From the NCBI GenBank assembly GCA_023129715.1, contig JAGMBO010000008.1, positions 58,340 to 122,339 on the forward strand: DNA of 64,000 bases. The letters are read 5' to 3'. The notes under the pieces were generated by a model that saw only the letters and a program-made list of their open reading frames with translations, was not told the origin of the DNA and searched no databases. This document shows positions 3,003 to 59,576 of the stretch, one piece after another; the stretch's first letter is position 1; each line of letters starts with the position of its first letter. A program made the translations under genes and the position numbers. The stretch comes from Candidatus Eiseniibacteriota bacterium (GTDB lineage: Bacteria > Eisenbacteria > RBG-16-71-46 > CAIMUX01 > WJJG01).

Positions 3003-3009
3003 GGAGGAG

Positions 3010-3648: not shown

Positions 3649-3654
3649 GAGACC

Positions 3655-6910: not shown

Positions 6911-9823
6911 TCAGTCGACGATGAGCATCCGCCGTGTCCAGACCCGGCTGCCAAGACGGAGGCGGCAGACGTAGAGACCTGCGGCAAGGCCTAGGCCCGC
7001 GTCGTCCGCGGACCAGCGCACTGCGCCGTCTTCAACGCCGCGCGCACCGCGCCAGACGAGCCTGCCCGAGATGTCGGAGATCTCCAGCTCGAGCTGGGTG
7101 ATGCCTCCCGAAATGTGCACCGGGATCCGAAACTCACCGAGGCAGGGATTCGGGCGGACGACCCCGATGGCGGTCCCACCCTCCTCATCGGGTGCATCCT
7201 CATCGGCGCCTTCCAGCGTCACATCCCCAAGCCCCCAATCGGGGTGGGTGACGGCCGTCGCCACCACGACCGGCTCCGGGCTTCCCGGAGTATGGAGCTC
7301 GACGCGCAGCTCCCAGCTCGATGGCGGCAGGCTGTCGGGCCAGGCGGTATGCCCCGAGCAGGCCTGCAGGCAGAGGGTGTCGGGCGCTGCGCCGCTGATC
7401 GTCCGATAGCGGGTGCTGCCGACATCGGTCCACGTCTCGCCATCCGGGCTCAGGAAGAGCGCCAGCGAGACCTGGGTCGTGCCACCGACGCAATCGGGGT
7501 CGCCGCAAACCTCGAGGGCGGTGAAGAAACCATCCCCATCCTCGTCTCCCGTCAAGGTGACCCACACCGCGGCCAGCGAGAGCTCTGGTTCGTCGAGTGC
7601 GAGAAACTGGGGCACCTCCCCCGGAATGAAGACCGCCAGGGTCTGCTCGGGAATCGGCGCCCAGCCGCCCTGCCCCGAGCCGAGCGACTCGGAAGCGACC
7701 ACCCAGAAGGGCGAGGCCTCCCCGTTGCGCCCGGCGGGCGCCGGGTAGTAGTGCTCGAAGTTGTATCCCGGTCCATAGTGCTGCAGCGCGTAGAGCGTGT
7801 CCCCCCGGGTGAGGACGAAATTGAGCATCTGTTCGTAGTCGTCGTGCAAGCCGGCATCCGCAACGATCGTACGCACAGCCGAGAGCAGGGCCGTCGTGAA
7901 ATCATCCTCTGGACGCTCGTCGATCAACTTGAACAGATAAAGCAGATAGAGCTCGGAGTCGATGTATCCGGTCCCGGGCGCACCGGGCGAATGATCGGGG
8001 GGATTGCAGAAGAGAAAGCTCGATCCCAGGCGGTCCTCCAATGCATCGGCATCGAGCCCCCCGTTGTGGGCGAAGAGGATCCCGCGGTGTTGGAAGGGAT
8101 GGGGATTGGGAATGCCACAGTGCCCCGAGCTGCCCCGCCGCACATGGGCAATCACCGCCGGCGGGAGGATCGCGGCGATCTCTTCGACCGCAAGTCTATA
8201 CTCCGGTTCGTGGGTGTCGCGGGCGGGAGGACCGCCCCGGCGGATCAGTGGCCGCCGCAGGGGAAGCTCGAGGTCGGCGGGGAGAAAACAGCCGATGCCC
8301 CACCCGTCGTCGTTGGTCTGCCCGAGTTCTCTCAAGTTCTGCCGTGATCCGTTCCAGAGGTGGTCGGTCACCATCTCGGAGGTGTAGTCCTGGCCGATCA
8401 GGCTCCAGAACCTGCAATTGTGCGCCACCGCGGGGACCGCCCGCTGTGGGCTCGTGGGCGGGCGCTCCTCGGGAAGGATCCCGCTCTGCGCGCGGTGGAC
8501 TGCGTGCGCCCCTGCCGCCGCGTCCGTCCCCGCGCCGGACGCCGCCCGATCTCCGCCGGCCGCATCGACGGACAGGAAGGTGGGCTCTTCACCGGGCACG
8601 AAGACGGCCAAGGTGCGCGGGGGGATCTGCGCCCAGGCGAGCGCATCCGAGCCGAGCGGTTCGGAGGCGACGGCCCAATAGGGCGAATCCTGCTTGCCCC
8701 CCGCGCCAGAGGAGCCCGCGCCCCGGCGCCCGCCCGGCGTATAGACCAGCGCATTGCTCGAACCGCTGCCATAGTAGTGCAACGCATAGAGGGTGTCGGC
8801 ACGGGTCAGCACGAAATTGAGCGCGGGCGACCCGCCCACGATTCGCGGATCGGCGGCGAAGGCGGCAACGGCCGCAACGAGTGCCTCGGTGAACTCGAGC
8901 GCGGGATGCTCACCGGCGTATTTCAGCAGACCGAGAAAGAGCAGCTCCGAGTCGATGTGTCCGGTCCCGCTGAAACCTTCCTTGTAGTCGGGGGGATGGC
9001 CGGTCAGATACTTGTCGAGATAGGCTTCGAGGCCCGCCTCGCGCACCCCGCCGTTGTGGGCGAAGAGCATCCCTTGATGGCGGAAGGGGTGGGGGTTGGG
9101 AATGCCCCAGTGGCCGGAGGTGCCGAAACGGACGTGGGCGATCGCCGCCTTGGGGCTGAGATCGGCCATCTCGGCCACCGTGAGACCATACTCGGGCTCG
9201 TGGGGATGCCCGGCGTAGGGACCGCCACGCCGGATGACCGCCATCTGCAGGGGGACGCGAGCGGAGTCGGACGGGAAGTAGCCGATGCCCCAGCCATCCG
9301 GGTTCTCCTGCCCCAAGCGCATCAGGTTCTCGTGACTGCCGTCGCGCAGGTGATCGGTGATCAGGTGGGCCGGACAGCCGCTTCCGATCAGGCCCCAGAG
9401 CCGGCAATTGTGGGGCACGGCGCCCAGGTTGCCGCCGTGGGGCCCGGCACCCACGCTGCCGCTGTGGGACTCGGCGCCCTCGCTGCCGCCGTGGGACTCG
9501 GCGCCGACGTTGCCGCTGTAGGACTCGGCGCCGACGTTGCCGCCGTGGGACTCGGCGCCGACGTTGCCGCTGTAGGACTCGGCGCCGACGTTGCCGCCGC
9601 CCGGAGATCCCGGGGGCACCACGGGCACCGAGAGTTCGCTTGGTCCTGCGAGCACCAAGAGCCCGGCCAGGGCGACCGGCCACAGCGCCGGCCCAAGGGC
9701 CCGGGCCCGGCGCCGGCCCGAATCGGCAGGCGCCGCCCCGCGCGGGACGGCTTTCTCCCGGATTGCGACTACGGCCTTCCAGGCGTAGAGTAACCCCTTC
9801 GGACTCATGGATTTCATCCGCAT
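6911..9823 (-). CDS. secreted protein with two tandem class-II glutamine amidotransferase-like (Ntn-hydrolase, YafJ/EgtC-type) domains, N-terminal 10-aa repeats and a T9SS C-terminal sorting domain
   Basis: 970 aa. Two homologous domains each begin HNCR(L/F)W(G/S)LIG and contain ...AHVR.G.SGH.GIPNPHPF.H.G.LFAHNGG. A GNVGAESxxG repeat region precedes them. The C-terminal ...GLYVCRLRLGSRVWTRRMLIVD resembles the Por/T9SS CTD. The N-terminus is hydrophobic and signal-like. Confidence 0.6.
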   Translation of the reverse strand: MRMKSMSPKGLLYAWKAVVAIREKAVPRGAAPADSGRRRARALGPALWPVALAGLLVLAGPSELSVPVVPPGSPGGGNVGAESYSGNVGAESHGGNVGAESYSGNVGAESHGGSEGAESHSGSVGAGPHGGNLGAVPHNCRLWGLIGSGCPAHLITDHLRDGSHENLMRLGQENPDGWGIGYFPSDSARVPLQMAVIRRGGPYAGHPHEPEYGLTVAEMADLSPKAAIAHVRFGTSGHWGIPNPHPFRHQGMLFAHNGGVREAGLEAYLDKYLTGHPPDYKEGFSGTGHIDSELLFLGLLKYAGEHPALEFTEALVAAVAAFAADPRIVGGSPALNFVLTRADTLYALHYYGSGSSNALVYTPGGRRGAGSSGAGGKQDSPYWAVASEPLGSDALAWAQIPPRTLAVFVPGEEPTFLSVDAAGGDRAASGAGTDAAAGAHAVHRAQSGILPEERPPTSPQRAVPAVAHNCRFWSLIGQDYTSEMVTDHLWNGSRQNLRELGQTNDDGWGIGCFLPADLELPLRRPLIRRGGPPARDTHEPEYRLAVEEIAAILPPAVIAHVRRGSSGHCGIPNPHPFQHRGILFAHNGGLDADALEDRLGSSFLFCNPPDHSPGAPGTGYIDSELYLLYLFKLIDERPEDDFTTALLSAVRTIVADAGLHDDYEQMLNFVLTRGDTLYALQHYGPGYNFEHYYPAPAGRNGEASPFWVVASESLGSGQGGWAPIPEQTLAVFIPGEVPQFLALDEPELSLAAVWVTLTGDEDGDGFFTALEVCGDPDCVGGTTQVSLALFLSPDGETWTDVGSTRYRTISGAAPDTLCLQACSGHTAWPDSLPPSSWELRVELHTPGSPEPVVVATAVTHPDWGLGDVTLEGADEDAPDEEGGTAIGVVRPNPCLGEFRIPVHISGGITQLELEISDISGRLVWRGARGVEDGAVRWSADDAGLGLAAGLYVCRLRLGSRVWTRRMLIVD
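9420..9605. repeat. ~30-bp tandem repeat array (~5-6 copies) inside the secreted GATase-II-like gene
   Basis: ggactcggcgccgacgttgccgc(c/t)gt(g/a)g repeated head-to-tail. Encodes GNVGAESxxG peptide repeats on the minus strand. Confidence 0.7.
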
Positions 9824-19358: not shown

Positions 19359-19360
19359 GA

Positions 19361-27462: not shown

Positions 27463-28065
27463 CGGGACCCCTCCGCGAAGCCGAGGGTCGGCTCTCCGAT
27501 GTTCTTGATGCGGCGTCTGGCCATGAGTCCATCCATGGGTTTGCATAGGTGGGCGGTTGATTTTCCGTTCGCGCCGGGCGTGAAGACCCCTCGGAAGCGG
27601 GCCCCTTGGTCTTGCCTGCGCCTTCCCGTTCTACCGAGGCAACCGACCCAGGCCCGACATCCTATCGCTCTCCGTGGGCGGTTGCATCCCCGCGGAGTGC
27701 TGTTGGCAGTGGAGAAAACCGCGCTTGGCCTGCGCTCTCCGGCGGGCGCGTGGAACCGCTGTACCAACCCCCGGTCGATGGCATCTCGGATGACGCGAGA
27801 AGCCATCGAGTAGTTCTTCTTGTCTATTCGCAGGCGTTCTCGCAGCGTGCTGTTGCTCATCTGTCTTCCAGATACATGGCAGAGACATGCATGCTGGTAG
27901 CAGGCACGAACCGCAGATCGGCGTTGCTCTCCTTGAACTCGACCCATTCAGTCTCTTTGGGAAGAGCGCACAGAGAATGCACTCGCTGTGCCAACTCCTC
28001 CGCGCTCATCAGGCCATGCGCACGCTCTGCCACATACCCCTGGTTCATCAGGCTCTGTCCCTCCA

Positions 28066-32880: not shown

Positions 32881-33175
32881 GCCAGAATCATAGCAGATCG
32901 CCGGCTAGTATGCCGGCGAAAAATCAACGATCTTGGGAGGTATTTCACACCTGTCGGAACGCGTCGCGGTCGGCGCCCTATCCTGCTATTCTGCAAACAG
33001 ATACGTGGCCGGCCCGGGCCTAGTGGACGCTGATAGGGGCAGCATTGCTCGGAGACAAACGCTGCCTGGAGTCGGTGCGCCGCCTGGAGCATGACGGAAG
33101 TGGATCTGAGCCTGCCGGCGACATCTCGCGTGGGATGGTAGCGCCCAGGAGGGGGCCATGCAGCAGACGAGTCGC

Positions 33176-34120
33176 TTAGCCCGCGTCGCGGGGCATCCAG
33201 ATCGGCAGATGCATTTCTCCAAGTTGCCGGGCGATCTGCTTGCGCAGGTGGCGAGCGACCGCCTTCAGCTCTGCGGGAGTCGGAAAAGCGACCTCATCAT
33301 CGCTCAAGTGCAAGGCGCCCGAACGGGGGCGCCCACTATCGTTGTACCCAAGTGCCATCCCATAGCGGGCCCCGTCATAGACGAAGATGGCGAGTCCGGC
33401 CATCTTCGTGTCATCGAGGGAACCGCCCATGATTGCATCGAGCCAACCATCGATATCGAGTTCGATGTAGCCTTCGACGATCGCCAGCAGGGTCACGTTG
33501 TGGATCTCGAGCGTATGCGGAGCTTCCTCGCCCGGGTTGGGAACGGACATGCGCGGCAGACGCCACGCCCGGACAGTGATCCGCTGCGAGCTGACCAGCC
33601 GCCCCGGATGGTAACCGAGGATGCTGTAGGGAATCGCCACGCGCAGGTTCTCGACGAACTCCGCCCGCGACCAGACCTCCAGCCCGCGGGCATCGCGCAT
33701 GCTCTGCACACTGGCGATCCGACAACAGGGGACCCGGCTCTTGCCCCCGCTGGAATCGAGCACCGCCTGAAGATGCTCACCGGTGACCAGACCGAAGGTA
33801 TCCCGATCGAGCAGACCGACTAGATAGGCGAAAATCGGGTCCTTGATGTCTTCGGGCATGTAGGGCTCAGCCGGTAGGTCCAGCGTATCGGCGCGCGCCA
33901 GGGCGGCATCGATGCGCGGCTCCCAGACCCGCAGGTAGTGCTCGCGCGAGGCAAGCGATTGAAAGGGGCTGACCATGACGGTCTCATCCGTCTTCGGCGA
34001 CGCATCCCGCGCCTCCTCCGCAACTCCCGGAGAGCTCAACCCAGTACAGAGGGCGAGCAGGAGAATCGTCACACCGCCGAGCGTCCCCGGGGGGCCTGCC
34101 CCGCCCGCGCAAGTTCTCAT
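33176..34120 (-). CDS. hypothetical secreted protein
   Basis: Internal start MRTCAGG..VTILLLALCTGLSSPGVAEEA looks like a signal peptide. No recognisable domain. The upstream ORF extension encodes the 24-bp tandem repeat. Confidence 0.4.
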   Translation of the reverse strand: MRTCAGGAGPPGTLGGVTILLLALCTGLSSPGVAEEARDASPKTDETVMVSPFQSLASREHYLRVWEPRIDAALARADTLDLPAEPYMPEDIKDPIFAYLVGLLDRDTFGLVTGEHLQAVLDSSGGKSRVPCCRIASVQSMRDARGLEVWSRAEFVENLRVAIPYSILGYHPGRLVSSQRITVRAWRLPRMSVPNPGEEAPHTLEIHNVTLLAIVEGYIELDIDGWLDAIMGGSLDDTKMAGLAIFVYDGARYGMALGYNDSGRPRSGALHLSDDEVAFPTPAELKAVARHLRKQIARQLGEMHLPIWMPRDAG

Positions 34121-34156
34121 CAATCCGCTCCCATCTCGACGCGCACGCCCGCGCAT

Positions 34157-34204
34157 TCCCACCATCCCGCCTTCGCGCACTCCCACCATCCCGCCTTCGC
34201 GCCA
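34157..34204. repeat. 24-bp perfect tandem duplication upstream of hypothetical gene 33176..34120
   Basis: tcccaccatcccgccttcgcgcac x2 (one mismatch). Confidence 0.6.
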
Positions 34205-37400: not shown

Positions 37401-38146
37401 GGCGCTACCCCGAGGCTCGCGCGCGTCACTCCCCGGTGGCCCTCGTCCATGAATCCTCCCGCAACGGTCTCTTCGCCAACTCGGCACCGCTGATCACCTA
37501 CGCGCACGCCGACCGGGAAGCGCTGCTCGACTACCTGACCGCACGGGTCATCGGCGGCCAAGGCGGCCACAGCCTCTTCATGCAGACCTGGGCCGCGGGA
37601 CTGGCCTACTCCAACGGGGTCGGCTGCAGCCCGCGCCGGGGCTACCTGACCTACTACGCCGAACGATGCACCGATGCCGCCGCCACGCTTGCCTTCGTCA
37701 TCGACAAGCTCGCGCAGGCCGACGAGACGCTCACCGATCCGGCCCTGCTCGACTACGCTCTGGCCAACACCTTCTCCGACTACCGCGGCGCGGACACCTA
37801 TGTCGCGCGCGGTCGCGCGATCGCGGCGGATCTGACCGACGGCATCACCCCCGATCGCGTGCGCCGGTTCAAGGAAGCGCTCATGGAGCTGCGCGCCGCA
37901 TGGCAGGACCCGGAGGAGGCGCGGACCCTCCTGGCCGATCTGCGCCGCCGCCTGCCAGCGCTGGCTGGGCGGGTGGTGCCCGGGTATGGACAGGCGCCCG
38001 CGGAGCCCCAGGGGGCGATCACCTTCCTGATCGGGCCCGAGACGCAGATCACGAAGGTCGAGGCGTTGCTGGCCCAGCGGGGCCGTCCGCAGCGCTTCTT
38101 GCGCCTGCGCCCACGCGACTATTGGATCGACGCCGGCGGCGACTGA
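34436..38146 (+). CDS. M16 family (pitrilysin/insulinase-like) zinc metallopeptidase, secreted
   Basis: 1236 aa. Inverted zincin motif HAGEHLVLGKGTKG (HxxEH). N-terminal hydrophobic signal (VALLLLAAAVCGTLPAHA). The large size suggests two M16 lobes. Confidence 0.7.
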   Translation: MCPRRRDRTRPIPPLANPRIRPACVSGVALLLLAAAVCGTLPAHAADEFAALEEGALLAGFQAVARYEAEDARPIGARFVHLATGTPVDLLRFDTVPQAFVWVRTIPASDGGEPHAGEHLVLGKGTKGRHYALLTDMSIGNHSASTWRDKTIYHCHTAGGTAAFSELLYRMLDALVRADFSDEEIRRELCHHGVLEDQATGTLSLEEKGTVYVEMVSAYEKPGTIVWNEILRRCFGPGHPLGWESGGRPDAIREVTPAGIRRFFADCYDLGPALGLILALPGSFALQATLADVDRILTELSGTAGETGAHAAASEPGRRPDPLALLPPLPETLDAQITLHPFPSDNPATPGQAAFAWLPRAGLEAYDTIALEALWHLLAGDEASYLYRDLVDQSQRIGPAGITSVSGFLGSMVGQPPMLWLSGLDPAILDAASLADVRRIVTERLARIAALEPGTPEFAELRERAANYLIGERRVLLENIDAPPRFGFRGTGDFWYQHLQLLERAGGFHRDLLLQASHQRLEEALAQGNPWADLIPRLALADAPAVVAAFPDTAMPARLGAEKRDRLRRATAELTRRYGVDDEQEALRRYRAEFDATTETLREIEARVPQPDFLPDPPLTLDDLIDAQIVELPLAFTGTTPLCVTRFHHTAQIDFGLYFDVTATPGDDLIVLALLPALITDIGAWDGADWLPYDQVAERLRRDTGGVEATYAALPRESGCRVELALYGGGLTPDEARAAVAWTRRLLKSATRIEPSVLPRLRDVVAREIASLRQTMMGSEEDWAWNPPHAYRHQHEGAYLSALAIFTRLHHLNRLAWMLTDPPAPEELDALRAKLERVGSRHGATREDLATYLTGLIEAQGAEPEPGSLGTSATPDPTPSTLRMTCEYLLAELGTLPDETFRDDCDRLAGQVLTDLPIAPAVVLARLSACVERLWAAGPARAHLTAARETAEEIQPELARLIRGFGTHWEPHHPPAAPITGHITRNLSGRYPEARARHSPVALVHESSRNGLFANSAPLITYAHADREALLDYLTARVIGGQGGHSLFMQTWAAGLAYSNGVGCSPRRGYLTYYAERCTDAAATLAFVIDKLAQADETLTDPALLDYALANTFSDYRGADTYVARGRAIAADLTDGITPDRVRRFKEALMELRAAWQDPEEARTLLADLRRRLPALAGRVVPGYGQAPAEPQGAITFLIGPETQITKVEALLAQRGRPQRFLRLRPRDYWIDAGGD

Positions 38147-45083: not shown

Positions 45084-47813
45084 ATGGCGGACTGGAAGCA
45101 GCTACTGGAGGAAGTTCTGGGACCCGCGGACGCCTCGGCGTCCGTTCTGGATGCCGAGGCGCGCCAAGCCGCTGAGCGCATCCTGGCCGAGGCCTCCGCT
45201 TCGAACGAAACGGAGGCCTTACTGCATGAGCTGGACACCCACTACCCGGCCCGCGGCAACGGCGGGACCTTGATTCCCTCGCGAGCCTATCTGCGGGGGC
45301 GGTCCCTCCTCGAGCTCAACCGCGATGCGGAGGCGCTCGAGAGCCTGTTGCCCTCCTGTGAGAAGCTCGAGCAGCAGGGGAATTGGCCCGATCTGGCCGC
45401 AACGGCCGATGAGATCCTCCAGCAGACTGCCAGTGTCGAGGCCGCCCGCTACCTCGCTAAGGCCGCCGAGCAGGGGGGGGCGGAGGTGATCCCGGAAGGC
45501 AGCCTGACGCGCGCCCTCGAGCTCTTCCCCGACGAACACCGGCTCTGCTGGCTCGTGGCCGAGCAGCTCGAACGTGAAGGCGACTCGGAACGGGCCTTGG
45601 GCCTCTACACCGGTTGCCTGCCGGCGTTGATCGAAGGCAAGCGCCTCGACCGGGCCGAGGAGATCTTCGTGCGCCTCGAGGAGCACGAAGATACCGAGAC
45701 CGTCGAGATCATGCTCCACGCCTGCGTCAAGCTCACCAATCAGAAACAATGGAACTTGGCCGACACTTACCTCGAACCGCTGCTGCCCAAGATCAAGAAG
45801 GCGGGTCTGGCCCGAGAGGCCTGGGACTTCTTCCTGAAGCTCCTCCCGAAGGCGCCGCCCGAATCGAACCTGCGGCGTTTCATGATGGACATTGCCCCCG
45901 ACGCCTTGCCCGATGTCGATGGGGTTCTCGACTTGTTGGCCCGCAGCGGCATCCTCGACCCCAAGATCAAGGTCGAGACCGCCCGGAAGGCGCTCGACGA
46001 GCTGTTCGAGTTCGCCCCCGGGTACCGCGTCCTCCATCAGAGCTGGCTGGCCGGGCGTGTGCGCACCAACGAGGGCGACGCCCTGATCATCGACTTCGCC
46101 GGCCGCCCCGGACACCGCATGACGATCTCGCTGGCCCGCAGGGCACTGAAGGTGATCCCCGCCGACGATCTCCGGGTCCAGATGCTCGAGCATCCGGAGG
46201 AGGTCAAGGCGATGGTGCGCGAAAAGCCGGCCGAGGTGGCCTTCCTCGCGATTCGCGAGCTGGGCGGACGGGTCACGACCCAGGAGCTGCGCCGCCGGTT
46301 GACCGGCGACGTCATGCCGACCTCGCGCTGGAACACCTGGTGGAAGGATGCCCGCCGGGCGATGGAGGAGGACGAACGCTTCGATCTCTCCGGAAGCTTT
46401 CGCCAGACCTACGCGATCCGCGTGCGCAGTACCAAAGACGACGAGGACATGATCCTGCCGCGTCTCGACCGGCGCCGGGGCATCCGCGCCAATCTCAATC
46501 TCCTGCGTCGCTTCCTCGGTCAGCATCCGACCCACCATCAGCGCGCATTGCGTATGTACACGCCGGTGCTGACGCGCTGGCTGCGTGACGAGAAGACCAA
46601 CCCCGAGGCCGCCATGGCGATCTGCCTTCTGTTGCGCCGCTGGCAGCGCCTCGACGAGGAGGATCTGCGGCGCGGTCTCCGCGCGATCCTCACCGACGGC
46701 ATCGAGATCTCCGTGTTCGCCGACGAGAGCGACCAGCGCTTCATGGTCGAGCAGGCGCTGGAGATCGCCAAGCTCGGGCGCCCCGCGATCCTCTTCGCCC
46801 TCGGTTCGCGCTACGAGGCAATCCGCACCTTGGCCCTCGATCGCATCGCCGCCGATCCGGCCCGCTTCGAAGGCCTGCTCACCGAGATGCTCAATCACCC
46901 GGAGGAGCGGCCTCACACGGCGATGACGGTGATCGGGATGACGATCAGCGAAGAGCGGGAGAAACCCGCCTACCTGCCGTCTCCCTGGGTGGCGGCGGTG
47001 GCGCTCTGCCGGCTCGTCGAACGCACGGGGCGCGATATCCTCCGCAACCAGGCGATGCGCCTCTTCAAACCGACGTCTGCGTTGGCGCGGGCCCTGCAGA
47101 CCCATCCGGTCTCCGATGAGGCACGTGGCTCCCTCGAAGATGAGCTCAAGCGCTGGCGCGAATCGGAGCGCTTCCTCTTCCCGATTCTGAACTTCTTCCA
47201 CGAAATGGGACTCACCGAGATCACCGCCATGGTCCGCGAGGAACGCTCAGCGGCAACGAATCGCTTCCTGCGTACGTCGGATGGTCAAGGGGACAAGTAC
47301 ACCGGAATTTTCGTGACCCGCGCGACACGCGACCGCCTCGAGGAGGAGCGCGACCGTCTAGCCTGGGAACTGAAAAACACGATCGCCGACGCCATCCGCC
47401 ACGCGCGTGAACATGGCGATCTCTCCGAAAACGCCGAGTACGATGCAGCCAAGGACAAGCAGGCCAAGCACGCCCAGCGCATCGGCGCCATCAACGAGAT
47501 GCTGAGCAAGGCGACGATGATCGAGCACGTCACCGTCCCGCCCGGCGAGGTCGGCCCCGGCTCGCTGGTCACCGTGCGCTGGCAGGCGAGCGACGCCGAT
47601 GCCCAGGAAACGACCCAGAGCTTCTGGCTCCTCGGTGACGGCGACAGCCGATTCGGCCGTGATGTCGTCTCCTGCTCCGCCCCGATCGGTCAGGCGCTGT
47701 TGGGGCGCAAGGTGGGCGACCCGGTGGTCGTCGAGCTGCCGGATGGCACGCGGCGCGGCGAGATCGTCGCCACCGAGCAGCGACTCCCCTCCGCGGGAAC
47801 GACCGCTGGGTAG
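45084..47813 (+). CDS. large protein (909 aa) with C-terminal full-length GreA/GreB-type transcript-cleavage-factor domain and ~740-aa N-terminal helical extension of unknown function
   Basis: C-terminal ...REHGDLSENAEYDAAKDKQAKHAQRIGAI (Gre coiled-coil with acidic tip) followed by the FKBP-like SAPIGQALLGRKVGDPVVVELPDG. The N-terminal region is helical and TPR-like, with a possible wHTH (ELGGRVTTQELRRRL). Confidence 0.6.
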   Translation: MADWKQLLEEVLGPADASASVLDAEARQAAERILAEASASNETEALLHELDTHYPARGNGGTLIPSRAYLRGRSLLELNRDAEALESLLPSCEKLEQQGNWPDLAATADEILQQTASVEAARYLAKAAEQGGAEVIPEGSLTRALELFPDEHRLCWLVAEQLEREGDSERALGLYTGCLPALIEGKRLDRAEEIFVRLEEHEDTETVEIMLHACVKLTNQKQWNLADTYLEPLLPKIKKAGLAREAWDFFLKLLPKAPPESNLRRFMMDIAPDALPDVDGVLDLLARSGILDPKIKVETARKALDELFEFAPGYRVLHQSWLAGRVRTNEGDALIIDFAGRPGHRMTISLARRALKVIPADDLRVQMLEHPEEVKAMVREKPAEVAFLAIRELGGRVTTQELRRRLTGDVMPTSRWNTWWKDARRAMEEDERFDLSGSFRQTYAIRVRSTKDDEDMILPRLDRRRGIRANLNLLRRFLGQHPTHHQRALRMYTPVLTRWLRDEKTNPEAAMAICLLLRRWQRLDEEDLRRGLRAILTDGIEISVFADESDQRFMVEQALEIAKLGRPAILFALGSRYEAIRTLALDRIAADPARFEGLLTEMLNHPEERPHTAMTVIGMTISEEREKPAYLPSPWVAAVALCRLVERTGRDILRNQAMRLFKPTSALARALQTHPVSDEARGSLEDELKRWRESERFLFPILNFFHEMGLTEITAMVREERSAATNRFLRTSDGQGDKYTGIFVTRATRDRLEEERDRLAWELKNTIADAIRHAREHGDLSENAEYDAAKDKQAKHAQRIGAINEMLSKATMIEHVTVPPGEVGPGSLVTVRWQASDADAQETTQSFWLLGDGDSRFGRDVVSCSAPIGQALLGRKVGDPVVVELPDGTRRGEIVATEQRLPSAGTTAG

Positions 47814-52992: not shown

Positions 52993-55677
52993 CTATCGCA
53001 CGAGCAGCAAACGCGCAGTTCGTGTCTCGCCGGCAGCCCGGAGTCGCAGCACATAGGCCCCAGTCGGAACCTGGCGGCCGCGCTGATCGCGGCCATCCCA
53101 GATGACGCGATGGTCTCCCGCGGGACGCCGCTCAGAGACCAGTGCCCGCACTTGTCGGCCGATCAGATCGAAGACGGCCAAGTTCACATCGCTCCGGGCC
53201 GGCAACGCAAAACCGATCGAACTGCTCCCGACGGCCGGGTTGGGCCACGGGCATTGCAGCGTCAGCGCCCGCGGCACACCACGAGCTCCCGGCCCATTGT
53301 CGACCGCCGCCTGCCCGCCGACCACCTCGAGGGCCACCAGCGCGGCCGCGCTGCGCGACTCACCCACCATGACGACAATCTCGGCCTCGTGGGATCCCGC
53401 GGCCAGGTCTGCGGCCGAGGCGTCCAGCTCGATAAGCGCCACCGCACCCGCCGCAATCGTGCCGGCGGTGGGAGTGGCACGCAGCCACGACACGCTCTCA
53501 CCAGAATCGATGTTCAGTAGACGGATGCGGAAAGAGAGCGGCTCGACACCTTGAGCGGCAAGCACGATACGAAGCTCCCCAGTGCGCGACCCACCAACCT
53601 CGAGCACCCAGGAAAGCCCCGCGGGGTTGAGATCCACGACCGGCGGCACTTTCTCCTCGACATCGATCAAAGCCACATGGGGAATGTGATTGAAGCCGGT
53701 CACCGTCAGGGTGATCGCCTCGTGCCGGGGCAGCGGGGCCAACCCCTCGATACGCGCATCACCGGATTCGTCGGTCAGTGCCGATCCCAGTGTGGTTCCC
53801 TGGAAACTGAGGGCGCAGAGCGCACCGGCCACGCCCGGCACGGAGAGCGTGAAGCTTTCCGCCTCGGGATCGATGCGCCGCGCGTGATCGACCGCAAGCG
53901 GTTCGGGGGTGTCACAGCGCACGACCATCGAGGGATCGCCGAAGATGTGCCAGTGCAGGAACTCGCTGCGGCCGCCCGGGTCGTACTCGTCCATCATCAG
54001 GAGGCTGCCCCGGTAGCAGAGCGCCCCAAAGACGGTCTCGCTCTCGGCGACCAGGAGATCGACCGTCTCGTCTTGAGCGGCCATCGGCGGCGCCCAGGCC
54101 ATGTCGGCGGAGGAGGCATACATGCCGACCGCACCTGTCGGCATACCGTTGTGGCTGGCCCGTAACCAGGCCTCGGCGAAACAGGTGCCCGAGGCGAAGC
54201 GCCCGTTCTTGCAGGCTACCGAGAAGACCCACGGCAGCTGGTTGTGATTCTCCAACGCACCGACCTGCTCATTGCTGAAGCCGGTCGTCGTCCAGCGCAT
54301 CGAGGAGCCGTGGCCGCAGTAGTTGATGATGCTGCGGCCCGCATTGACGGCATCGGTGACCATCTGCGCGGTCGCCTGGTAGGGAATCGCCGCGTAGATC
54401 GTGTCGACTTGCGTATAGGTGAAGTTGAGCAGATCGGTGCGGATGTAGTCGATGTGAATGAAGTCCGCCTCGTCGTCGTCTCCGTACTCATCCCCCTGTC
54501 CCGAACCGATGCCGACACCCTTGTGGTACCAGCTTCCACCGACCTCGGGACTCTGCTCGTAGTCGACGAACTTGCGGACCTGCAGGATCACTCCCTCGAC
54601 CGTCTCGGCCGAGAGGCGACCAACGATGAGATCCGGGTAGTAGTCGTCGCCCTCGACCAGCGAGTAGGAAGGGTCGGAGTATCCGAACGGAACGTAGGGC
54701 GACGGGACTTGCGCCGCATCCCCGACGAGCAGCACGTAGGCCAGATTGTGAATCCGATAGAGGCTCTGGATGTAGGCCAGCAGCAAATCGGGATCCGTCG
54801 CCCCGGCACCCGTATGCGAGAGCGGGACCAGCATGGTCGGCAGGCCGCGCTGGTTCTTCCAGGTGACGAAGGGCTCCATGTAGGGCACGAACTCATCGTG
54901 GGCAATGATCAGCATCTTGCCCGGCGCCAACTGATCGTTCGAATTGGGAGGCACGAAGTTGAGGAAGTGCTCGGCGTAGAGACCGGCAAAGACGGGCGCC
55001 ATCTTCTCCGGGGTCCTGGAGCGAGTCAGCAGGTTGTGCTCGGCGGCGCCGACGGGCACGACCTCCACCTCCACACGGTCATAGACCCGCAGCCGGCGCT
55101 GCCCGGGATTGTACTGCACCGGATGAAGCTCGACCACCAAGCCCCGGTAGTCGCGCAGGACATAGGGCTCGCGCCGAGCGAGGAGATCCTCTGGGTACCA
55201 GCGATCCTCCCCGTAGACAGCCCCGAACTCATAAGGAATAGTGGCCGGATCTACCGTGCGCAGCAGCGGACCCTTCGACGGAATGACATCCAGGTCGGAA
55301 TACTCACGAAAGCTGGACGCAACCACCCGCACATCCATGCGGGCGTCATCGGGGATGATGATACTGCGGCAGACATACGGGAGCGCCGGCGCGCCCCTTT
55401 CTCGCAGCTGCGGCTCTCCATCGATCCGCACATCGACATGGCGACGCCCGTCGATCTCGACCGGAACTATCCGGAAGCCTTCCAGATCGAAGACCAGACG
55501 GGTGCCCCCGGCGGCGAGTTCATCGGTCGCGACGCTGACCCATTCCGTTGAACTCAAGGTGGAGGCGGCCCCATCCAGGGGCACCAGCGTGCCCGAGTCC
55601 GCGGCCGGCGCCGGCGTTGAGACGCCCGCAGCCCAGATGAGCCCGATGATGATCGATGAGTAGTAACAGCCCCTCAT
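52993..55677 (-). CDS. peptidase C25 (gingipain-like) family protein with T9SS C-terminal sorting domain
   Basis: Start at MRGCYYSSIIIGLIWAAGVSTPAPAA (signal). Catalytic-domain motifs NYCGHGS (His) and VFSVACKNG (Cys). The C-terminal ...WPNPAVGSSSIGFALP...GAYVLRLRAAGETRTARLLLVR matches the Por_Secre_tail pattern. Confidence 0.65.
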   Translation of the reverse strand: MRGCYYSSIIIGLIWAAGVSTPAPAADSGTLVPLDGAASTLSSTEWVSVATDELAAGGTRLVFDLEGFRIVPVEIDGRRHVDVRIDGEPQLRERGAPALPYVCRSIIIPDDARMDVRVVASSFREYSDLDVIPSKGPLLRTVDPATIPYEFGAVYGEDRWYPEDLLARREPYVLRDYRGLVVELHPVQYNPGQRRLRVYDRVEVEVVPVGAAEHNLLTRSRTPEKMAPVFAGLYAEHFLNFVPPNSNDQLAPGKMLIIAHDEFVPYMEPFVTWKNQRGLPTMLVPLSHTGAGATDPDLLLAYIQSLYRIHNLAYVLLVGDAAQVPSPYVPFGYSDPSYSLVEGDDYYPDLIVGRLSAETVEGVILQVRKFVDYEQSPEVGGSWYHKGVGIGSGQGDEYGDDDEADFIHIDYIRTDLLNFTYTQVDTIYAAIPYQATAQMVTDAVNAGRSIINYCGHGSSMRWTTTGFSNEQVGALENHNQLPWVFSVACKNGRFASGTCFAEAWLRASHNGMPTGAVGMYASSADMAWAPPMAAQDETVDLLVAESETVFGALCYRGSLLMMDEYDPGGRSEFLHWHIFGDPSMVVRCDTPEPLAVDHARRIDPEAESFTLSVPGVAGALCALSFQGTTLGSALTDESGDARIEGLAPLPRHEAITLTVTGFNHIPHVALIDVEEKVPPVVDLNPAGLSWVLEVGGSRTGELRIVLAAQGVEPLSFRIRLLNIDSGESVSWLRATPTAGTIAAGAVALIELDASAADLAAGSHEAEIVVMVGESRSAAALVALEVVGGQAAVDNGPGARGVPRALTLQCPWPNPAVGSSSIGFALPARSDVNLAVFDLIGRQVRALVSERRPAGDHRVIWDGRDQRGRQVPTGAYVLRLRAAGETRTARLLLVR

Positions 55678-55867
55678 GCAGTCGTCCCCTCCATGCAGCG
55701 GTCTCTTCCGTCCGCTCGTGACCAGGGACCACCTGCTGCCGCCGACGCAACGACCCACCGGGCAGAGGGCAGACGGCCTGCCTCGGACAGTCCCTCATCT
55801 GTTCGAAGTAGAACAAGTATAGCAAAGTACGGCAGATGGGTTCTCGCCGGAGGCAGGATTTCTCCAT

Positions 55868-55911
55868 TTGGCCCCTGCTTGGCCCCTGTTTGGCCCCTGT
55901 TTGGCCGCTGC
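55868..55911. promoter_or_regulatory. four tandem 11-nt repeats (TTGGCCCCTGT-like) in divergent promoter region
   Basis: ttggcccctgc / ttggcccctgt / ttggcccctgt / ttggccgctgc. Period 11 nt (about one helical turn). Lies between the divergently transcribed C25 peptidase and aminotransferase genes. Confidence 0.4.
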
Positions 55912-56060
55912 CCCCAACCCAGGAGCGGTTGTGGGTGCCCCGTACCGCCCCATTTCCCTTGGGCATAGGCAATTCGACTGATACACTCCATGCTTGAGAA
56001 GCAGTCTCGGCCTCAGGCTGCCCCACCCAGGCCGCACGATCACCAGCCAAGGAGATCGGC

Positions 56061-57524
56061 ATGAAGCAGCGTAATCCCCCCGGCCGCAATTGCCCTGGTC
56101 TCTCCCGGCGCGCCTTCCTCGGCGCCACTCTCGGCGGTGCGGCCCTTGGGTTGATCCCCCCGGCACCGGCTGCGGCCCGGCCGTCCGGCGCGAGTGGGCA
56201 CCTCGCGACCGCGGGGGAGCTCTTCCGCGACTACACCGGCCGGTTGTGCTACAACGAAAACCCTCTCGGTCCGTCTCCGCTGGCGATGACCGCGATGGCC
56301 GACAGCATCCCGATGGGACACCGCTACACCGATTGGTATGCCGAGTCCCTACGGAGCGATCTCGCCACCCTGCACAGCGTCGGCAGCAACCAGATCATCG
56401 CGGGATGTGGAGCGACCGAGATCCTGCGCCTCTGTGCGCTCGCCTTCGCCGACCCCGCGGGCAATGTGGTCAGTCCCTATCCTTCCTACTCGCAGTTCCC
56501 GAGCGATGCCGGGTTCCTGGGGGCGAGTGTGCGCTACGCCGACCTCGATGCGAACTACGCTGTCGATCTCTCGGCAATGGCGGCGCAAGTCGACGCGAAT
56601 ACGACCGTGCTCATTCTGACTAACCCGAACAACCCGACCGGCCCCGTTCTGGGCGCGAGCGAGATCAGCGCCTTCATCGACGCCCTTCCCGCACACGTGG
56701 CGGTGATCATCGATGAGGCCTATCACGAGTACATCCAGGATGCCGGGTACGCCTCGGCGATGGAGGATGTACGCCAGGGGCGCAAGGTCGTCGTCATCCG
56801 GACCTTCTCGAAGGTCTTCGGCCTGGCCGGCGTACGGATCGGATATGCGGTCGGCCATCAAGATCTGATCTCGGCGGTGCGCAGCTGGCAGACCTACGGT
56901 ACCGTCTCGCGTCCCGCCATGGATGCGGCCCGCGCGGCCCTGGGCGACAGCCAGCACATCACCGACACCGTCACCCTGTGCAATCAGGCCAAGCAGTACT
57001 GCTTCGATGAACTCGACCTGATGGGCCTCGACTACATCCCCTCGGAGACGAACTTCTTCATGGTCGATGTCGACAATGGCGCCTGGGTGCGCTCAGAGCT
57101 GGCCAACGCGGGAATCCTGGTACGGCAGGGTTGGGGCATGCCGCAACACATCCGCGTCTCGACCGGCACCATGCAGGAGATGGAGGACTTCATCACCGAG
57201 TTGCAGAACATCCTGGCGGCCATGGCCAGAGGTGAGCCGGGGCTGCCGCGAATCACGTCGCTCGACGGCAATCAGCCCAATCCATTCCGCGGAGCGACCT
57301 CGATCGGGTTCGGGCTGGCGCACTCCGGACGCGTGCGCCTGGAGGTATTCAGCATCGAGGGGCGGCGATTGCGCACCCTCATCGACGGGCCCGTGGAGGC
57401 AGGCCGGCACACGCTGCGCTGGGATGGCCGGGATACCCAGGGCCACCCGGTCGGCGCGGGCTCCTATTTCTATCGGCTGATCGCGGGCGATGTGCGAGAG
57501 ACGCGCCGGATGATCCGGCTCTGA
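56061..57524 (+). CDS. class I/II (HisC-like) PLP-dependent aminotransferase with Tat signal peptide and T9SS C-terminal sorting domain
   Basis: N-terminal SRRAFLGATLGGAALGL twin-arginine motif. Aminotransferase motifs LTNPNNPTG and TFSKVFGLAGVRIGYAVG (PLP lysine). The C-terminal ~85 aa (QPNPFRGATSIGFGLA...GSYFYRLIAGDVRETRRMIRL) match the Por_Secre_tail pattern. Confidence 0.7.
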   Translation: MKQRNPPGRNCPGLSRRAFLGATLGGAALGLIPPAPAAARPSGASGHLATAGELFRDYTGRLCYNENPLGPSPLAMTAMADSIPMGHRYTDWYAESLRSDLATLHSVGSNQIIAGCGATEILRLCALAFADPAGNVVSPYPSYSQFPSDAGFLGASVRYADLDANYAVDLSAMAAQVDANTTVLILTNPNNPTGPVLGASEISAFIDALPAHVAVIIDEAYHEYIQDAGYASAMEDVRQGRKVVVIRTFSKVFGLAGVRIGYAVGHQDLISAVRSWQTYGTVSRPAMDAARAALGDSQHITDTVTLCNQAKQYCFDELDLMGLDYIPSETNFFMVDVDNGAWVRSELANAGILVRQGWGMPQHIRVSTGTMQEMEDFITELQNILAAMARGEPGLPRITSLDGNQPNPFRGATSIGFGLAHSGRVRLEVFSIEGRRLRTLIDGPVEAGRHTLRWDGRDTQGHPVGAGSYFYRLIAGDVRETRRMIRL

Positions 57525-57667: not shown

Positions 57668-59077
57668 CTAATGCGGATCTCGGAACATGCTCCGCAACCG
57701 GCCCCAGCTCGGGACTTCCACCGAAGTCTCGTCGCAGGCCGCGCCATAGCGACCCATCTGGCCTACGCACCCGCCGGGGACCTGGGATGAGGCGCAGGGC
57801 GAGTCGAAGGTGATCGTAAGATCCCCCAACGGCGCATCGCAGAACTTCGGATCCTGGAAGATGTTGCCGTTCGCCGGCGAGGGCGGGGAACAGACCTCGA
57901 CATCGCCCGCGAAGTTGTCCCAGAAGGCGTTGCAGGCCACGGCAGGCGTACCGCTACAGTAGATCGCCGCCGTGCCGTCGTGCCGGCAGAAGATGTTCTG
58001 AACGATGTTGGGGGATCCGAAGTAGACGTAGATTGCGGAGCCGAACGCACTGCCCTCATTGCCATAGAAGGTGCAGTATTCGATCACATCCGCGAAATCA
58101 TCCTGGTAGATCGCACCACCCTCCGCCGCGGTGTTCTCGACGAAGAGATTGCGCGTGATCGTTGCGTCGGCGACATCGCCGGCGGCATACAGGGCACCAC
58201 CACGGGAGTCGGCCGTGTTGAGGCGGAAGGTATTGTCGGCGATCTCATCGCCCGAGATGCTCGCGACATAGATGGCGCCACCCAGGTAGTCGCAATGGTT
58301 GTTCTCGAAGATGCAGTTGCGAATCTGGCTCTCATGGCAGATGAAGTAGATCGCGCCGCCATAGAGCGCGTCGCAGTGACGGAACTCACAGTTCTCGATG
58401 GTCAAGCCGGTGCAGCGGGCGTCGATTGCTCCGCCGTCCGCGAATGTCGTGCAATATTCGAAGGTGGAGTTGGCAATGCGGGAAGTGGTCCCGGACGGAT
58501 TGTAGGTGTAGATCGCGGCCCCCCCATAGAGCGTTCCCGTGGCCTCGAGATGTGAGAAGGTACACTCATTGACATCGATGGAGCAGGAGTCGACGTAGAT
58601 GCCGAGTCCCCCCCCGGTGGCGGTGAGATTCTCGAAAGTACAGTTCCAGATCTTACAGGGTTCCTGGGTGTAAATCTCGATCGCCGACCCGTTGCCGGTG
58701 AAACGAATGCCGTAGATCTCGAGCGTGGCGCCGCTGTCGACAAAGAGGGTGCGCCCGTTGTGCGGCTGCCAGTTGACCTGCCCAAACACCTCAGCGATGA
58801 AGACCAGGTCTTCGGTGAAGCTGACGAATTCGGTGTAGGTCCCAGAGGCGATCTGGATCGTGTCCCCGTTGCTCGCCGAAGAAACCGCGCCCCCAATCGT
58901 CGGCGAGTCGCCGCCGCCGCCAGGATCGACGATGTAGGTCGTTGCCTGCGCGGCGCCCGGGAAGACGAGCGTCAGGCCCAGAGCCAGAGCGAGCAGGCCC
59001 ACGACCATCGGATGAAAGCCCAGGTCGAGAAGGGGCCGGCGGGGCTCTCTGGTGGGAAGCGTCCGGGGGATCTTCAT
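57668..59077 (-). CDS. right-handed parallel beta-helix repeat protein, secreted
   Basis: Start at MKIPRTLP...MVVGLLALALGLTLVFPGAAQA (signal). Repeated GGAIY/GGALY-containing ~22-aa units are typical of pectate-lyase-fold beta-helices. Confidence 0.6.
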   Translation of the reverse strand: MKIPRTLPTREPRRPLLDLGFHPMVVGLLALALGLTLVFPGAAQATTYIVDPGGGGDSPTIGGAVSSASNGDTIQIASGTYTEFVSFTEDLVFIAEVFGQVNWQPHNGRTLFVDSGATLEIYGIRFTGNGSAIEIYTQEPCKIWNCTFENLTATGGGLGIYVDSCSIDVNECTFSHLEATGTLYGGAAIYTYNPSGTTSRIANSTFEYCTTFADGGAIDARCTGLTIENCEFRHCDALYGGAIYFICHESQIRNCIFENNHCDYLGGAIYVASISGDEIADNTFRLNTADSRGGALYAAGDVADATITRNLFVENTAAEGGAIYQDDFADVIEYCTFYGNEGSAFGSAIYVYFGSPNIVQNIFCRHDGTAAIYCSGTPAVACNAFWDNFAGDVEVCSPPSPANGNIFQDPKFCDAPLGDLTITFDSPCASSQVPGGCVGQMGRYGAACDETSVEVPSWGRLRSMFRDPH

Positions 59078-59576
59078 GGCATCCTCCTGGGAAACGGGGC
59101 ACCGTGTGCGCATCGCCCCGGATCTGTTTCGCGCTCGGCATCTCCGTGCCGGCGAGGGCCGGGAACGGTCACAGGTTCATCATTCGGCGCAAGCGCAGAT
59201 ATTCGTTAGTGATCCGGAGACGAACGTCGATCGCTGCAGATGGCCCCGCCCGGCGGATCGGCCGACGTGGCAGGGCATTGCCCACCAGACCCAGACATGG
59301 TCCCCGCCGGCCCGCCGGGTTCCCACTGGCACCGGCATTCGCAACCGAGGTATCCTGGAGCAGTTCCCGTGCCCCCGACGCTGGGGAAGGCGCCATGCGT
59401 GCCGTGAGTGAAGGCCTTGCTGGTAGGGGGACCGGGGATCGGGACCGTGGAGCAATGATTTCCGGAGACTCAGTAGGTGGCCGGGCCGCCCGCGAGTGCT
59501 CGGACGACAAGGGGGGTGGCTGAAACGACGTAGACGAAGGACGCCGGTCGGCGTTCCGTTGGCACGGAGGGGATCT

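What the first reader, a model, noticed from the sequence alone, without database searches (positions are those of the whole stretch)
56061..57524. HisC-like PLP aminotransferase targeted by both a Tat signal and a T9SS C-terminal domain
Aminotransferases of this class are cytoplasmic housekeeping enzymes. This one keeps the catalytic hallmarks (NPNNPTG; SK-lysine in TFSKVFGLAG). It gains an N-terminal SRRAFLG twin-arginine signal, suitable for exporting a folded, cofactor-loaded enzyme. It also gains a C-terminal ~85-aa Por_Secre_tail-like domain, which directs T9SS secretion or cell-surface attachment. An extracellular or surface transaminase is unusual. It suggests extracellular amino-acid or keto-acid conversion. 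The repeat-bearing promoter is shared divergently with the C25 peptidase.
Basis: partly seen in the sequence, partly recalled or inferred. Interest (0 to 1): 0.6.

Follow-up and report, generated by a model that had tools for sequence, protein, structure and literature searches.

The report
Tat-exported aminotransferase with T9SS sorting domain
An uncultured Eisenbacteria genome encodes a vitamin-B6 enzyme with both a folded-protein export signal (Tat) and an outer-membrane secretion tag (T9SS CTD), a pairing that reviews say does not occur but that I also found in two other enzyme families.

Summary

The design defines a family: more than 100 clusters in Eisenbacteria, Zixibacteria, Krumholzibacteriia, Marinimicrobia and Gemmatimonadota, with R16-R17-x-F19 invariant in 89 of 89 aligned members.

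The Tat part is not new. The nearest CTD-less relatives are Tat-exported periplasmic transaminases of the PtaA/PRK09105 type. The CTD is the addition.

T9SS reviews state that all cargo is Sec-dependent. I found Tat leader plus type-A CTD in two more families: DUF362 proteins, and multicopper oxidases (115 of 120, including cultured Ignavibacterium album).

The likely route is Tat export of the folded holoenzyme, then T9SS secretion to the cell surface. The substrate is unknown. T9SS and Tat machinery genes in this genome could not be tested, and no experiment exists.

The parts
56061..57524 (+). Complete gene (487 aa plus stop codon): Tat leader, HisC-like PLP aminotransferase and T9SS type-A-like CTD
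   Evidence: ORF list; identical to the NCBI gene call MCK4412382.1; AF2 model with pLDDT 87.3
56052..56056 (+). Shine-Dalgarno sequence AGGAG, 4 nt upstream of the ATG
   Evidence: Read directly from the sequence. It supports the start codon and therefore translation of the leader.
56061..56177 (+). Twin-arginine (Tat) leader, residues 1-39. The S-R-R-A-F-L-G motif is at 56103-56123. It is followed by a weakly hydrophobic Ala/Gly/Leu h-region and an A-A-A|R putative signal-peptidase site (the cleavage site is inferred).
   Evidence: R16, R17 and F19 are invariant in 89 of 89 aligned homologues. The h-region statistics are typical of Tat signals and there is no lipobox. AF2 predicts a helix at 16-31 followed by a disordered stretch at 32-50. 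The PRK09105 and PtaA models align from residue 13-14. TIGR01409 is below threshold.
56223..57227 (+). PLP-dependent aminotransferase domain, fold type I, HisC-like, residues ~55-389
   Evidence: Pfam PF00155, 175 bits. hisC TIGR01141 scores 259 bits, below its cutoff of 276.55. Foldseek gives target-normalised TM-score 0.90 and rmsd 1.8 A to 3LY1. The PLP-binding residues map one-to-one onto E. coli HisC.
56811..56813 (+). Codon of K251, the Schiff-base lysine (equivalent to E. coli HisC K214)
   Evidence: Invariant in the family and aligned to HisC K214
57228..57257 (+). Inter-domain linker, residues 390-399. This is the expected region of CTD cleavage if the CTD is processed (inferred).
   Evidence: No regular secondary structure in the AF2 model; sequence variable across the family
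57258..57521 (+). C-terminal seven-strand beta-sandwich, residues 400-487: a T9SS type-A-like CTD of the FlgD_ig-like variety
55678..56060 (.). Divergent intergenic region (383 bp) containing four tandem 11-nt repeats, TTTGGCCCCTG, at 55867-55910
   Evidence: No sigma-70-like promoter was found. Function unknown.
52993..55677 (-). Divergent neighbour: a gingipain-like C25 peptidase (894 aa) with the same CTD but a Sec-type leader. It serves as a comparator cargo, not as PorU.
   Evidence: Pfam Propeptide_C25, Peptidase_C25, C25_C and FlgD_ig. Its CTD scores 23.9 bits on TIGR04183 and 54 bits by phmmer against the aminotransferase CTD. The PorU model scores only 63 bits against a cutoff of 420. 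Leader sequence MRGCYYSSIIIGLIWAAGV.
6911..9817 (-). Third protein in the window with the same domain at its extreme C-terminus: 968 aa, with a class-II glutamine-amidotransferase (Ntn) domain, a choice-of-anchor H domain and the CTD
   Evidence: CTD HMM score 37, E 1.6e-10, ending at the last residue. Pfam GATase_4. NCBIfam choice-of-anchor H. Gene call.

Best explanation
The gene encodes an extracytoplasmic PLP-dependent transaminase that most likely takes a two-step route to the cell surface. In step 1 (inferred), the enzyme folds and binds PLP in the cytoplasm. It probably forms a dimer, as fold-type-I aminotransferases do. The Tat translocase then carries it across the inner membrane by means of its S-R-R-x-F-L leader, as shown experimentally for the related periplasmic transaminase PtaA. 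In step 2 (inferred), its C-terminal type-A CTD is recognised by a type IX secretion system. The folded enzyme passes the outer membrane and is then either released or attached to the surface. It descends from Tat-exported periplasmic HisC-like transaminases and gained the CTD within phyla allied to the FCB (Fibrobacteres-Chlorobi-Bacteroidetes) superphylum. The chemistry is transamination, or a related PLP reaction, on an alpha-amino acid-type substrate outside the cytoplasm. The substrate is unknown. What is shown here: the domain architecture, intact catalytic residues, co-conservation of leader and CTD across the family, and the structural kinship of the CTD. What is inferred: Tat dependence, T9SS dependence, the final location and the oligomeric state.
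Confidence: 0.55

Rival explanations
1. The enzyme is periplasmic only. Tat delivers it to the periplasm, as for PtaA, and the C-terminal Ig-like domain is a structural or binding module (for tethering to peptidoglycan, the outer membrane or a partner protein) and not a secretion signal.
For: The Pfam match is FlgD_ig and the profile's best PDB sequence hits are FlgD (E 8e-9). The module also occurs as 9-15 internal tandem repeats in giant proteins. Generic Ig-like folds score as well as most CTDs. No T9SS machinery has been demonstrated in this genome. Every known T9SS cargo uses Sec.
Confidence: 0.22
2. It is ordinary Sec-dependent T9SS cargo. The twin arginine is only part of a positively charged n-region, and the protein crosses the inner membrane unfolded and acquires PLP in the periplasm.
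For: TIGR01409 is below threshold on the window leader (11.4 bits, cutoff 16.7). This reading would agree with the literature rule that T9SS cargo is Sec-dependent.
Against: The full S/T-R-R-x-F-[LIMF] motif, not just positive charge, is invariant in 89 of 89 members. The homologue P0096 passes TIGR01409. The clade includes the experimentally Tat-dependent PtaA. CTD cargo that lacks cofactors, in the same loci and in the CTD-only database hits, shows no RR motif, and those with intact N-termini mostly have plain hydrophobic Sec leaders. No source of free PLP in the periplasm is known (my own knowledge).
Confidence: 0.08
3. The CTD is a sorting signal, but for a machinery other than canonical T9SS: either a divergent, lineage-specific outer-membrane export or anchoring system, or a CTD that is retained (PorU/PorZ-like) and holds the enzyme on the surface without cleavage.
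For: The family lives in phyla where T9SS has never been studied. The CTD belongs to the FlgD_ig-like variety, with a beta5-beta6 insertion also seen in the unprocessed CTDs of PorU and PorZ. CTDs are poorly interchangeable even between Bacteroidota species.
Against: There is no positive evidence for another system. Reviews assign CTD proteins and T9SS jointly to the FCB superphylum. The CTD of the divergent family member P0122 looks like the canonical Bacteroidota type.
Confidence: 0.12

Closest known systems
PtaA (periplasmic transaminase A of Pseudomonas; NCBIfam NF051461) and the PRK09105 group (NF006580)
   Same: A HisC-like fold-type-I PLP aminotransferase with an N-terminal twin-arginine leader. 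PtaA is exported folded together with its PLP through Tat (PMC6206403). Both models align to the window protein from residue 13-14, so they cover the leader.
   Different: The scores are far below the family cutoffs (206 against 500, and 248 against 444), so it is not an orthologue. PtaA has no C-terminal domain and stays in the periplasm. There is no pyoverdine context here.
Histidinol-phosphate aminotransferase HisC (TIGR01141; E. coli 1FG3; closest solved structure 3LY1)
   Same: Same fold (target-normalised TM-score 0.90 to 3LY1) and the same PLP-binding residues and paired arginines.
   Different: It scores just below the hisC equivalog cutoff (259 against 276.55). It carries an export leader and a CTD. 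There is no his operon context. HisC D85 is Thr or Ser throughout the Tat-exported clade.
T9SS type-A CTD cargo (TIGR04183 / PF18962; RgpB, mirolase, NucA; the CTDs of PorU and PorZ)
   Same: A terminal seven-strand 3+4 beta-sandwich of about 85 aa with a PNP motif, the beta3-beta4 Gly and a basic, hydrophobic C-terminal strand. It passes the HMM cutoff and its best structural match is the PorU CTD.
   Different: The N-terminal signal is Tat-type, whereas all verified cargo is Sec-type. The hosts are Eisenbacteria and allied phyla, not Bacteroidota. The sequence is closer to the FlgD_ig flavour.
Tat-dependent substrates of the type II secretion system (for example P. aeruginosa phospholipase C PlcH)
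   Same: Analogous logic: Tat carries a folded protein across the inner membrane, and a separate outer-membrane secretion system that accepts folded cargo then takes over. This comparison rests on my own knowledge; only notes that T2SS cargo can arrive by Sec or Tat.
   Different: A different outer-membrane machine and a different targeting signal. It is a functional analogy only.
CueO / FtsP(SufI)-type multicopper oxidases with a T9SS CTD in Ignavibacteria (for example Ignavibacterium album, P0496)
   Same: The same combination of a Tat leader and a type-A CTD on a cofactor-containing enzyme.
   Different: An unrelated catalytic domain and cofactor. These proteins are found in a cultured organism.

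Membership tests
Fold-type-I (class I/II) PLP aminotransferase, HisC-like | Pfam PF00155 above its gathering score | tested here: met
   175.3 bits against 19.7, residues 62-379
Fold-type-I (class I/II) PLP aminotransferase, HisC-like | Schiff-base Lys and the PLP-binding Asp, Tyr, Asn, Arg and Ser/Thr residues | tested here: met
   K251, D218, Y221, N191, R259 and T248/S250 align to E. coli HisC K214, D184, Y187, N157, R222 and T211/S213. K251, D218, Y221, N191, R259, T248 and S250 are also invariant in 89 sequences.
Fold-type-I (class I/II) PLP aminotransferase, HisC-like | Three-dimensional fold | tested here: met
   AF2 model with pLDDT 87; Foldseek match to 3LY1 at E 2e-31, target-normalised TM-score 0.90, rmsd 1.8 A
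Histidinol-phosphate aminotransferase proper (hisC equivalog TIGR01141) | Score at or above the curated equivalog cutoff | tested here: not met
   259 bits against 276.55
Histidinol-phosphate aminotransferase proper (hisC equivalog TIGR01141) | Cytoplasmic location and a histidine-biosynthesis context | tested here: not met
   A twin-arginine leader is present. No his genes occur in any of the eight neighbourhoods examined.
PtaA / PRK09105 Tat-exported periplasmic transaminases | Twin-arginine leader S/T-R-R-x-F-L-K followed by a weakly hydrophobic h-region | tested here: met
   S-R-R-A-F-L-G; R16, R17 and F19 invariant in 89 of 89; h-region statistics. The TIGR01409 HMM is below threshold on this sequence (11.4 against 16.7) but passes for the homologue P0096 (21.7).
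PtaA / PRK09105 Tat-exported periplasmic transaminases | Score at or above the NF051461 or NF006580 cutoff | tested here: not met
   206 against 500, and 248 against 444. It is a related clade, not a member.
PtaA / PRK09105 Tat-exported periplasmic transaminases | Tat-dependent export of the PLP-loaded enzyme | not testable with these tools
   This needs tatC or RR-to-KK genetics.
T9SS type-A CTD cargo | TIGR04183 / PF18962 match above threshold | tested here: met
   TIGR04183 scores 26.3 bits against 23 for the isolated domain; three tested homologue CTDs score 33-39 bits. PF18962 is precomputed on most homologues.
T9SS type-A CTD cargo | The domain lies at the extreme C-terminus | tested here: met
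   It ends within a residue or so of the last residue in all locus ORFs tested and the conserved tail is present in 119 of 120 homologues.
T9SS type-A CTD cargo | Seven-strand 3+4 Ig-like beta-sandwich resembling solved CTDs | tested here: met
T9SS type-A CTD cargo | A conserved Gly in the beta3-beta4 loop and a conserved C-terminal motif (determinants described in PMC11285876) | tested here: met
   G434 is invariant. T481, R482 and R483 are at least 90% conserved, and R482 is invariant in the 16-sequence alignment.
T9SS type-A CTD cargo | An N-terminal Sec-type signal peptide | tested here: not met
   The leader is Tat-type. Reviews and T9GPred require Sec.
T9SS type-A CTD cargo | The host genome encodes the T9SS core (SprA/Sov, PorV, PorU, PorK/L/M/N) | not testable with these tools
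   None was found in the window plus about 13 kb of flanks. The C25 proteins in the loci do not reach the PorU cutoff. There was no way to scan the rest of GCA_030629055.1.
T9SS type-A CTD cargo | CTD-dependent secretion, with cleavage or attachment by PorU | not testable with these tools
   Experimental

The most novel reading that the evidence does not exclude
Tat-to-T9SS is a real and general two-step export route that has gone unrecognised. In FCB-superphylum bacteria, enzymes that must fold and load cofactors in the cytoplasm would cross the inner membrane by Tat and are then handed, through a type-A CTD, to the type IX system for surface display or release. The examples found here are a PLP transaminase, DUF362 proteins and multicopper oxidases. 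The Eisenbacteria protein would then be a cell-surface or extracellular PLP transaminase, possibly secreted as a dimer. That would overturn the rule that all T9SS cargo is Sec-dependent and widen what the SprA translocon is thought to carry.
Probability: 0.4. Interest if true: 0.8.

Novelty: new variant of a known kind. Interest (0 to 1): 0.62.

Why it matters
T9SS reviews and the T9GPred prediction pipeline treat a Sec signal as a defining feature of cargo and discard proteins with Tat signals. Three unrelated enzyme families conserve a Tat leader together with a type-A CTD. If that pairing is functional, T9SS takes cargo that arrives pre-folded and cofactor-loaded, as T2SS does. Current cargo predictors would then be missing a class of secreted redox and PLP enzymes. 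For the protein itself, a surface or extracellular PLP transaminase would be an unusual activity. It raises the question of what amino or keto compound is converted outside the cell, and how PLP is regenerated there, in widespread uncultured sediment and soil phyla. The Ignavibacterium album multicopper oxidase offers a cultured organism in which to test the route.

Tried and rejected
1. T9SS machinery. I annotated nearly all of the window and about 13 kb of flanks with Pfam and NCBIfam and found no T9SS component. I tested whether the neighbouring C25 peptidase or other large C25 proteins are PorU; the best score was 88 bits against a cutoff of 420, so they are not. A literature search for Eisenbacteria plus type IX secretion returned nothing. 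I found no route with these tools to scan the rest of the genome.

2. Conserved synteny as a clue to the substrate. Seven further neighbourhoods were examined and no partner gene is conserved. C25 peptidases and MscS channels recur only sporadically. The idea of a functional pair with the C25 peptidase through a shared promoter is rejected as a general feature.

Only four full-length relatives were retrieved.

4. The Tat HMM TIGR01409 is too short to be reliable. It is below threshold on the window leader and silent on the DUF362 and oxidase leaders. The Tat call therefore rests on motif conservation and homology.

5. My early note that TIGR04183 was not hit was a display artefact: only the best 25 of 86 families were listed. 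One search corrected it.

6. Housekeeping HisC is rejected, because of the leader, the CTD, the absence of his context and the sub-cutoff score.

7. A pseudo-enzyme is rejected, because all catalytic residues are invariant.

8. A mis-called start codon is rejected, because of the Shine-Dalgarno sequence and protein-level conservation of the leader.

9. Literature searches for any report of Tat-dependent T9SS cargo found none in the searchable library.

Full report
OBSERVATION. The ORF at 56061..57524 (+) is real and encodes 487 aa. It is identical to the NCBI gene call MCK4412382.1 on contig DAOVPT010000005.1 of assembly GCA_030629055.1. The adjacent gene's product is named as coming from 'Candidatus Eisenbacteria sp.'. 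An AGGAG Shine-Dalgarno sequence at 56052-56056, 4 nt upstream of the ATG, supports the start codon.

DOMAINS. Pfam places Aminotran_1_2 at residues 62-379 (E 2.7e-51) and FlgD_ig at 409-470 (33 bits, gathering score 27). NCBIfam ranks hisC TIGR01141 first at 259 bits, just below its cutoff of 276.55. PRK09105 (248 bits) and the pyoverdine transaminase PtaA (206 bits) follow, and both align from residue 13-14, so they include the leader. Scanned alone, the last 92 residues pass the curated T9SS type-A model TIGR04183 (26.3 bits against 23, profile positions 3-70 of 72). They also align to the CTD ends of the PorU, PorZ and T9SS-dependent protease models. My earlier impression that TIGR04183 did not hit was a display limit. 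The Tat HMM TIGR01409 is below threshold on this leader (11.4 against 16.7) but passes for the homologue P0096.

A CONSERVED FAMILY. The word-indexed search returned 822 homologues at E below 1e-10. The best 120 are nearly all about 480 aa and carry PF00155 plus PF13860, and most also carry PF18962 (Por_Secre_tail). About 105 of the 120 have [ST]RRxF within their first 90 residues; most of the rest are shorter than the family norm and look truncated. 119 of 120 end in the same strand. In an 89-sequence alignment R16, R17 and F19 are invariant. The uncharged stretch after the motif has a median length of 16 residues, is rich in Ala, Leu and Gly (mean Kyte-Doolittle 1.75), usually ends at a basic residue, and never contains a lipobox. 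Named members come from Eisenbacteria, Zixibacteria, Krumholzibacteriia, Neomarinimicrobiota and a Gemmatimonadota chromosome. In the library clustered at 50% identity, the full-length form collapses to about three clusters. Next come CTD-less proteins of about 370-395 aa at 34-46% identity, many of which match from query residue 13-15. All eight that I inspected have RR leaders, and one further relative (P0124) carries a different C-terminal extension. The Tat leader is therefore ancestral, and the CTD is the innovation.

IS THE C-TERMINAL DOMAIN A SORTING TAG? An HMM of the CTD finds it at the extreme C-terminus of unrelated proteins. In the window these are the divergent gingipain-like C25 peptidase (52993-55677) and a 968-aa Ntn-amidotransferase-like protein (6911-9817). 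In related loci they include giant C25/FG-GAP proteins and an LVIVD beta-propeller. Two of these proteins contain 'choice-of-anchor' B or H domains. From my own knowledge, I recall that those families are defined by pairing with whichever C-terminal sorting signal a lineage uses. These other cargo candidates have ordinary Sec-type leaders. In DUF362 relatives the CTD slot is sometimes filled by a dockerin, an extracellular anchoring module. The same Ig-like module also occurs as 9-15 internal tandem copies in giant proteins, so the fold alone does not prove a secretion role.

TAT PLUS CTD IS NOT UNIQUE TO THIS PROTEIN. Two DUF362 proteins lie next to the family member P0121 on Gemmatimonadota chromosome CP070758.1. 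They carry S-T-R-R-E-F-L-R and P-R-R-T-F-L-K leaders, and their CTDs pass TIGR04183 at 27.5 and 38.5 bits. A search shows about 45 clusters with DUF362 plus Por_Secre_tail. Nearly all with intact N-termini have [STP]RRxF[LI]K leaders. The 27 unrelated proteins that matched only through the CTD show no twin-arginine motif; those with intact N-termini mostly have hydrophobic Sec-type leaders. One of the CTD-only hits was a multicopper oxidase. Searching with it returned a large family of multicopper oxidase plus Por_Secre_tail proteins centred on Ignavibacteria, including cultured Ignavibacterium album. 115 of the best 120 start with M-K-R-R-[DE]-F-I-I-K. The I. album protein aligns to the E. 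coli CueO model from residue 1 and to the FtsP/SufI model from residue 2, and its CTD scores 35.9 bits. That CueO and SufI are classic Tat substrates is my own knowledge.

WHAT IS KNOWN. PtaA is a 'normal' PLP transaminase that is unusual only in working in the periplasm, which it reaches folded and with its PLP through Tat (PMC6206403). For T9SS the literature is explicit. [quoted passage not shown] T9GPred reports that none of 102 verified cargo proteins has a Tat signal and uses the absence of a Tat signal as a filter. T9SS carries folded cargo, including GFP and mCherry fusions. It is attributed to the FCB superphylum, with possible presence in Gemmatimonadetes, Ignavibacteriota, Cloacimonadota, Chlorobiota and Fibrobacterota. 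I found no paper connecting Tat with T9SS cargo.

MECHANISM. The best-supported reading has three steps. First, the enzyme folds in the cytoplasm, loads PLP and probably dimerises. Second, Tat exports it, as for PtaA. Third, the CTD is recognised by a T9SS, and the enzyme is released or attached to the surface. The substrate cannot be assigned. Synteny is not conserved in the eight neighbourhoods examined. The protein falls below the cutoff of every equivalog model. The change at the HisC D85 position suggests a substrate other than histidinol phosphate.

MAIN GAP. No T9SS or Tat machinery gene lies in the window or in about 13 kb of flanks. The C25 proteins are not PorU. I had no means of scanning the rest of the genome. 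Rivals: a periplasmic enzyme with a non-secretory Ig domain (0.22), a CTD serving a non-canonical system or retained on the surface (0.12), and ordinary Sec-dependent cargo (0.08).

VERDICT. The interesting element is the conserved pairing of a Tat leader with a T9SS CTD. That pairing contradicts the stated rule and recurs in three unrelated enzyme families, one of them in a cultured organism. It is a new variant of known kinds (PtaA-type exported transaminases and T9SS cargo). Interest 0.62.

Noticed in passing
L090:14893-16218 and L090:16378-17736 (CP070758.1, Gemmatimonadota MAG); homologues P0275-P0318: DUF362 proteins with canonical twin-arginine leaders (STRREFLR, PRRTFLK) and type-A T9SS CTDs that pass TIGR04183. 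About 45 clusters share this architecture. Some relatives carry a dockerin in place of the CTD, and several of the CTD-less relatives have a Cys-containing, lipobox-like sequence after the RR leader.
   Followed up: yes
P0393, P0395-P0513 (for example Ignavibacterium album P0495-P0497): A large family of CueO-like multicopper oxidases with a Por_Secre_tail CTD. 115 of the best 120 begin with an MKRR[DE]FIIK twin-arginine leader. It includes a cultured species, which gives a tractable test case for Tat-dependent T9SS cargo.
   Followed up: yes
window 6911-9817 (-): A 968-aa protein with a class-II glutamine-amidotransferase (Ntn, weakly EgtC-like) domain, a choice-of-anchor H domain and the same CTD. 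Its N-terminal region contains tandem GNVGAES(Y/H)(S/G) repeats and an arginine-rich leader (SGRRRARAL). It is another enzyme type usually found in the cytoplasm that carries a secretion tag.
   Followed up: partly
window 55867-55910: Four tandem copies of the 11-nt unit TTTGGCCCCTG, about one helical turn apart, in the divergent intergenic region between the C25 peptidase and the aminotransferase. The unit occurs nowhere else in the window, and no sigma-70-like promoter was found nearby. It may be a regulator-binding array.
   Followed up: partly
window ~17310-34189 (-): A BREX-type defence island. It includes BrxL (17310-19358), an 819-aa ORF with no Pfam match (19361-21820), a 1186-aa MmeI/Eco57I-type methyltransferase, a DUF4062/HATPase_c_4 protein (25975-27546), a 1148-aa ORF with no Pfam match (28066-31512) and a weak BrxB match (31509-32072).
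   Followed up: no
window 34436-38146 (+): A 1236-aa ORF with strong coding signal (GC3 0.85) and no Pfam match, adjacent to the defence island.
   Followed up: no
L091:6491-9986 (contig just upstream of the window start) and window 399-4566: ATP-citrate-lyase-like gene pair (ATP-grasp_2 with Citrate_synth_N; CoA_binding with Ligase_CoA and Citrate_synt) together with aconitases, isocitrate dehydrogenase and pyruvate:ferredoxin oxidoreductase. This suggests a reductive TCA cycle in this Eisenbacteria MAG. It is followed by a Psr/Nrf-type molybdopterin oxidoreductase operon whose catalytic subunit shows no Tat leader as called.
   Followed up: no
P0125, P0127, P0128, P0132, P0177, P0251 (representative library): Giant proteins of 1,300-2,400 aa containing 9-15 tandem internal copies of a module similar to this CTD. 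The FlgD_ig-like sandwich is therefore also used as a repeating structural unit and not only as a terminal tag.
   Followed up: no
P0124 (462 aa): A close CTD-less relative (46% identity) with a Tat leader and a different C-terminal extension of about 75 aa (…WYQIYRS…YFYRVRS…). This suggests that alternative C-terminal modules have been added to the same periplasmic transaminase scaffold.
   Followed up: no
window 57668-59113 (-): The convergent neighbour is a parallel beta-helix / PMP-repeat protein with a leader containing P-R-R-P-L-L and a long hydrophobic stretch, and no CTD. Whether its leader is Tat-type or Sec-type is unclear.
   Followed up: no
window 45084-47813 (+): A 909-aa protein that fuses an HTH_GRAD domain to GreA/GreB N- and C-terminal domains, which is unusually long for a Gre factor.
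   Followed up: no
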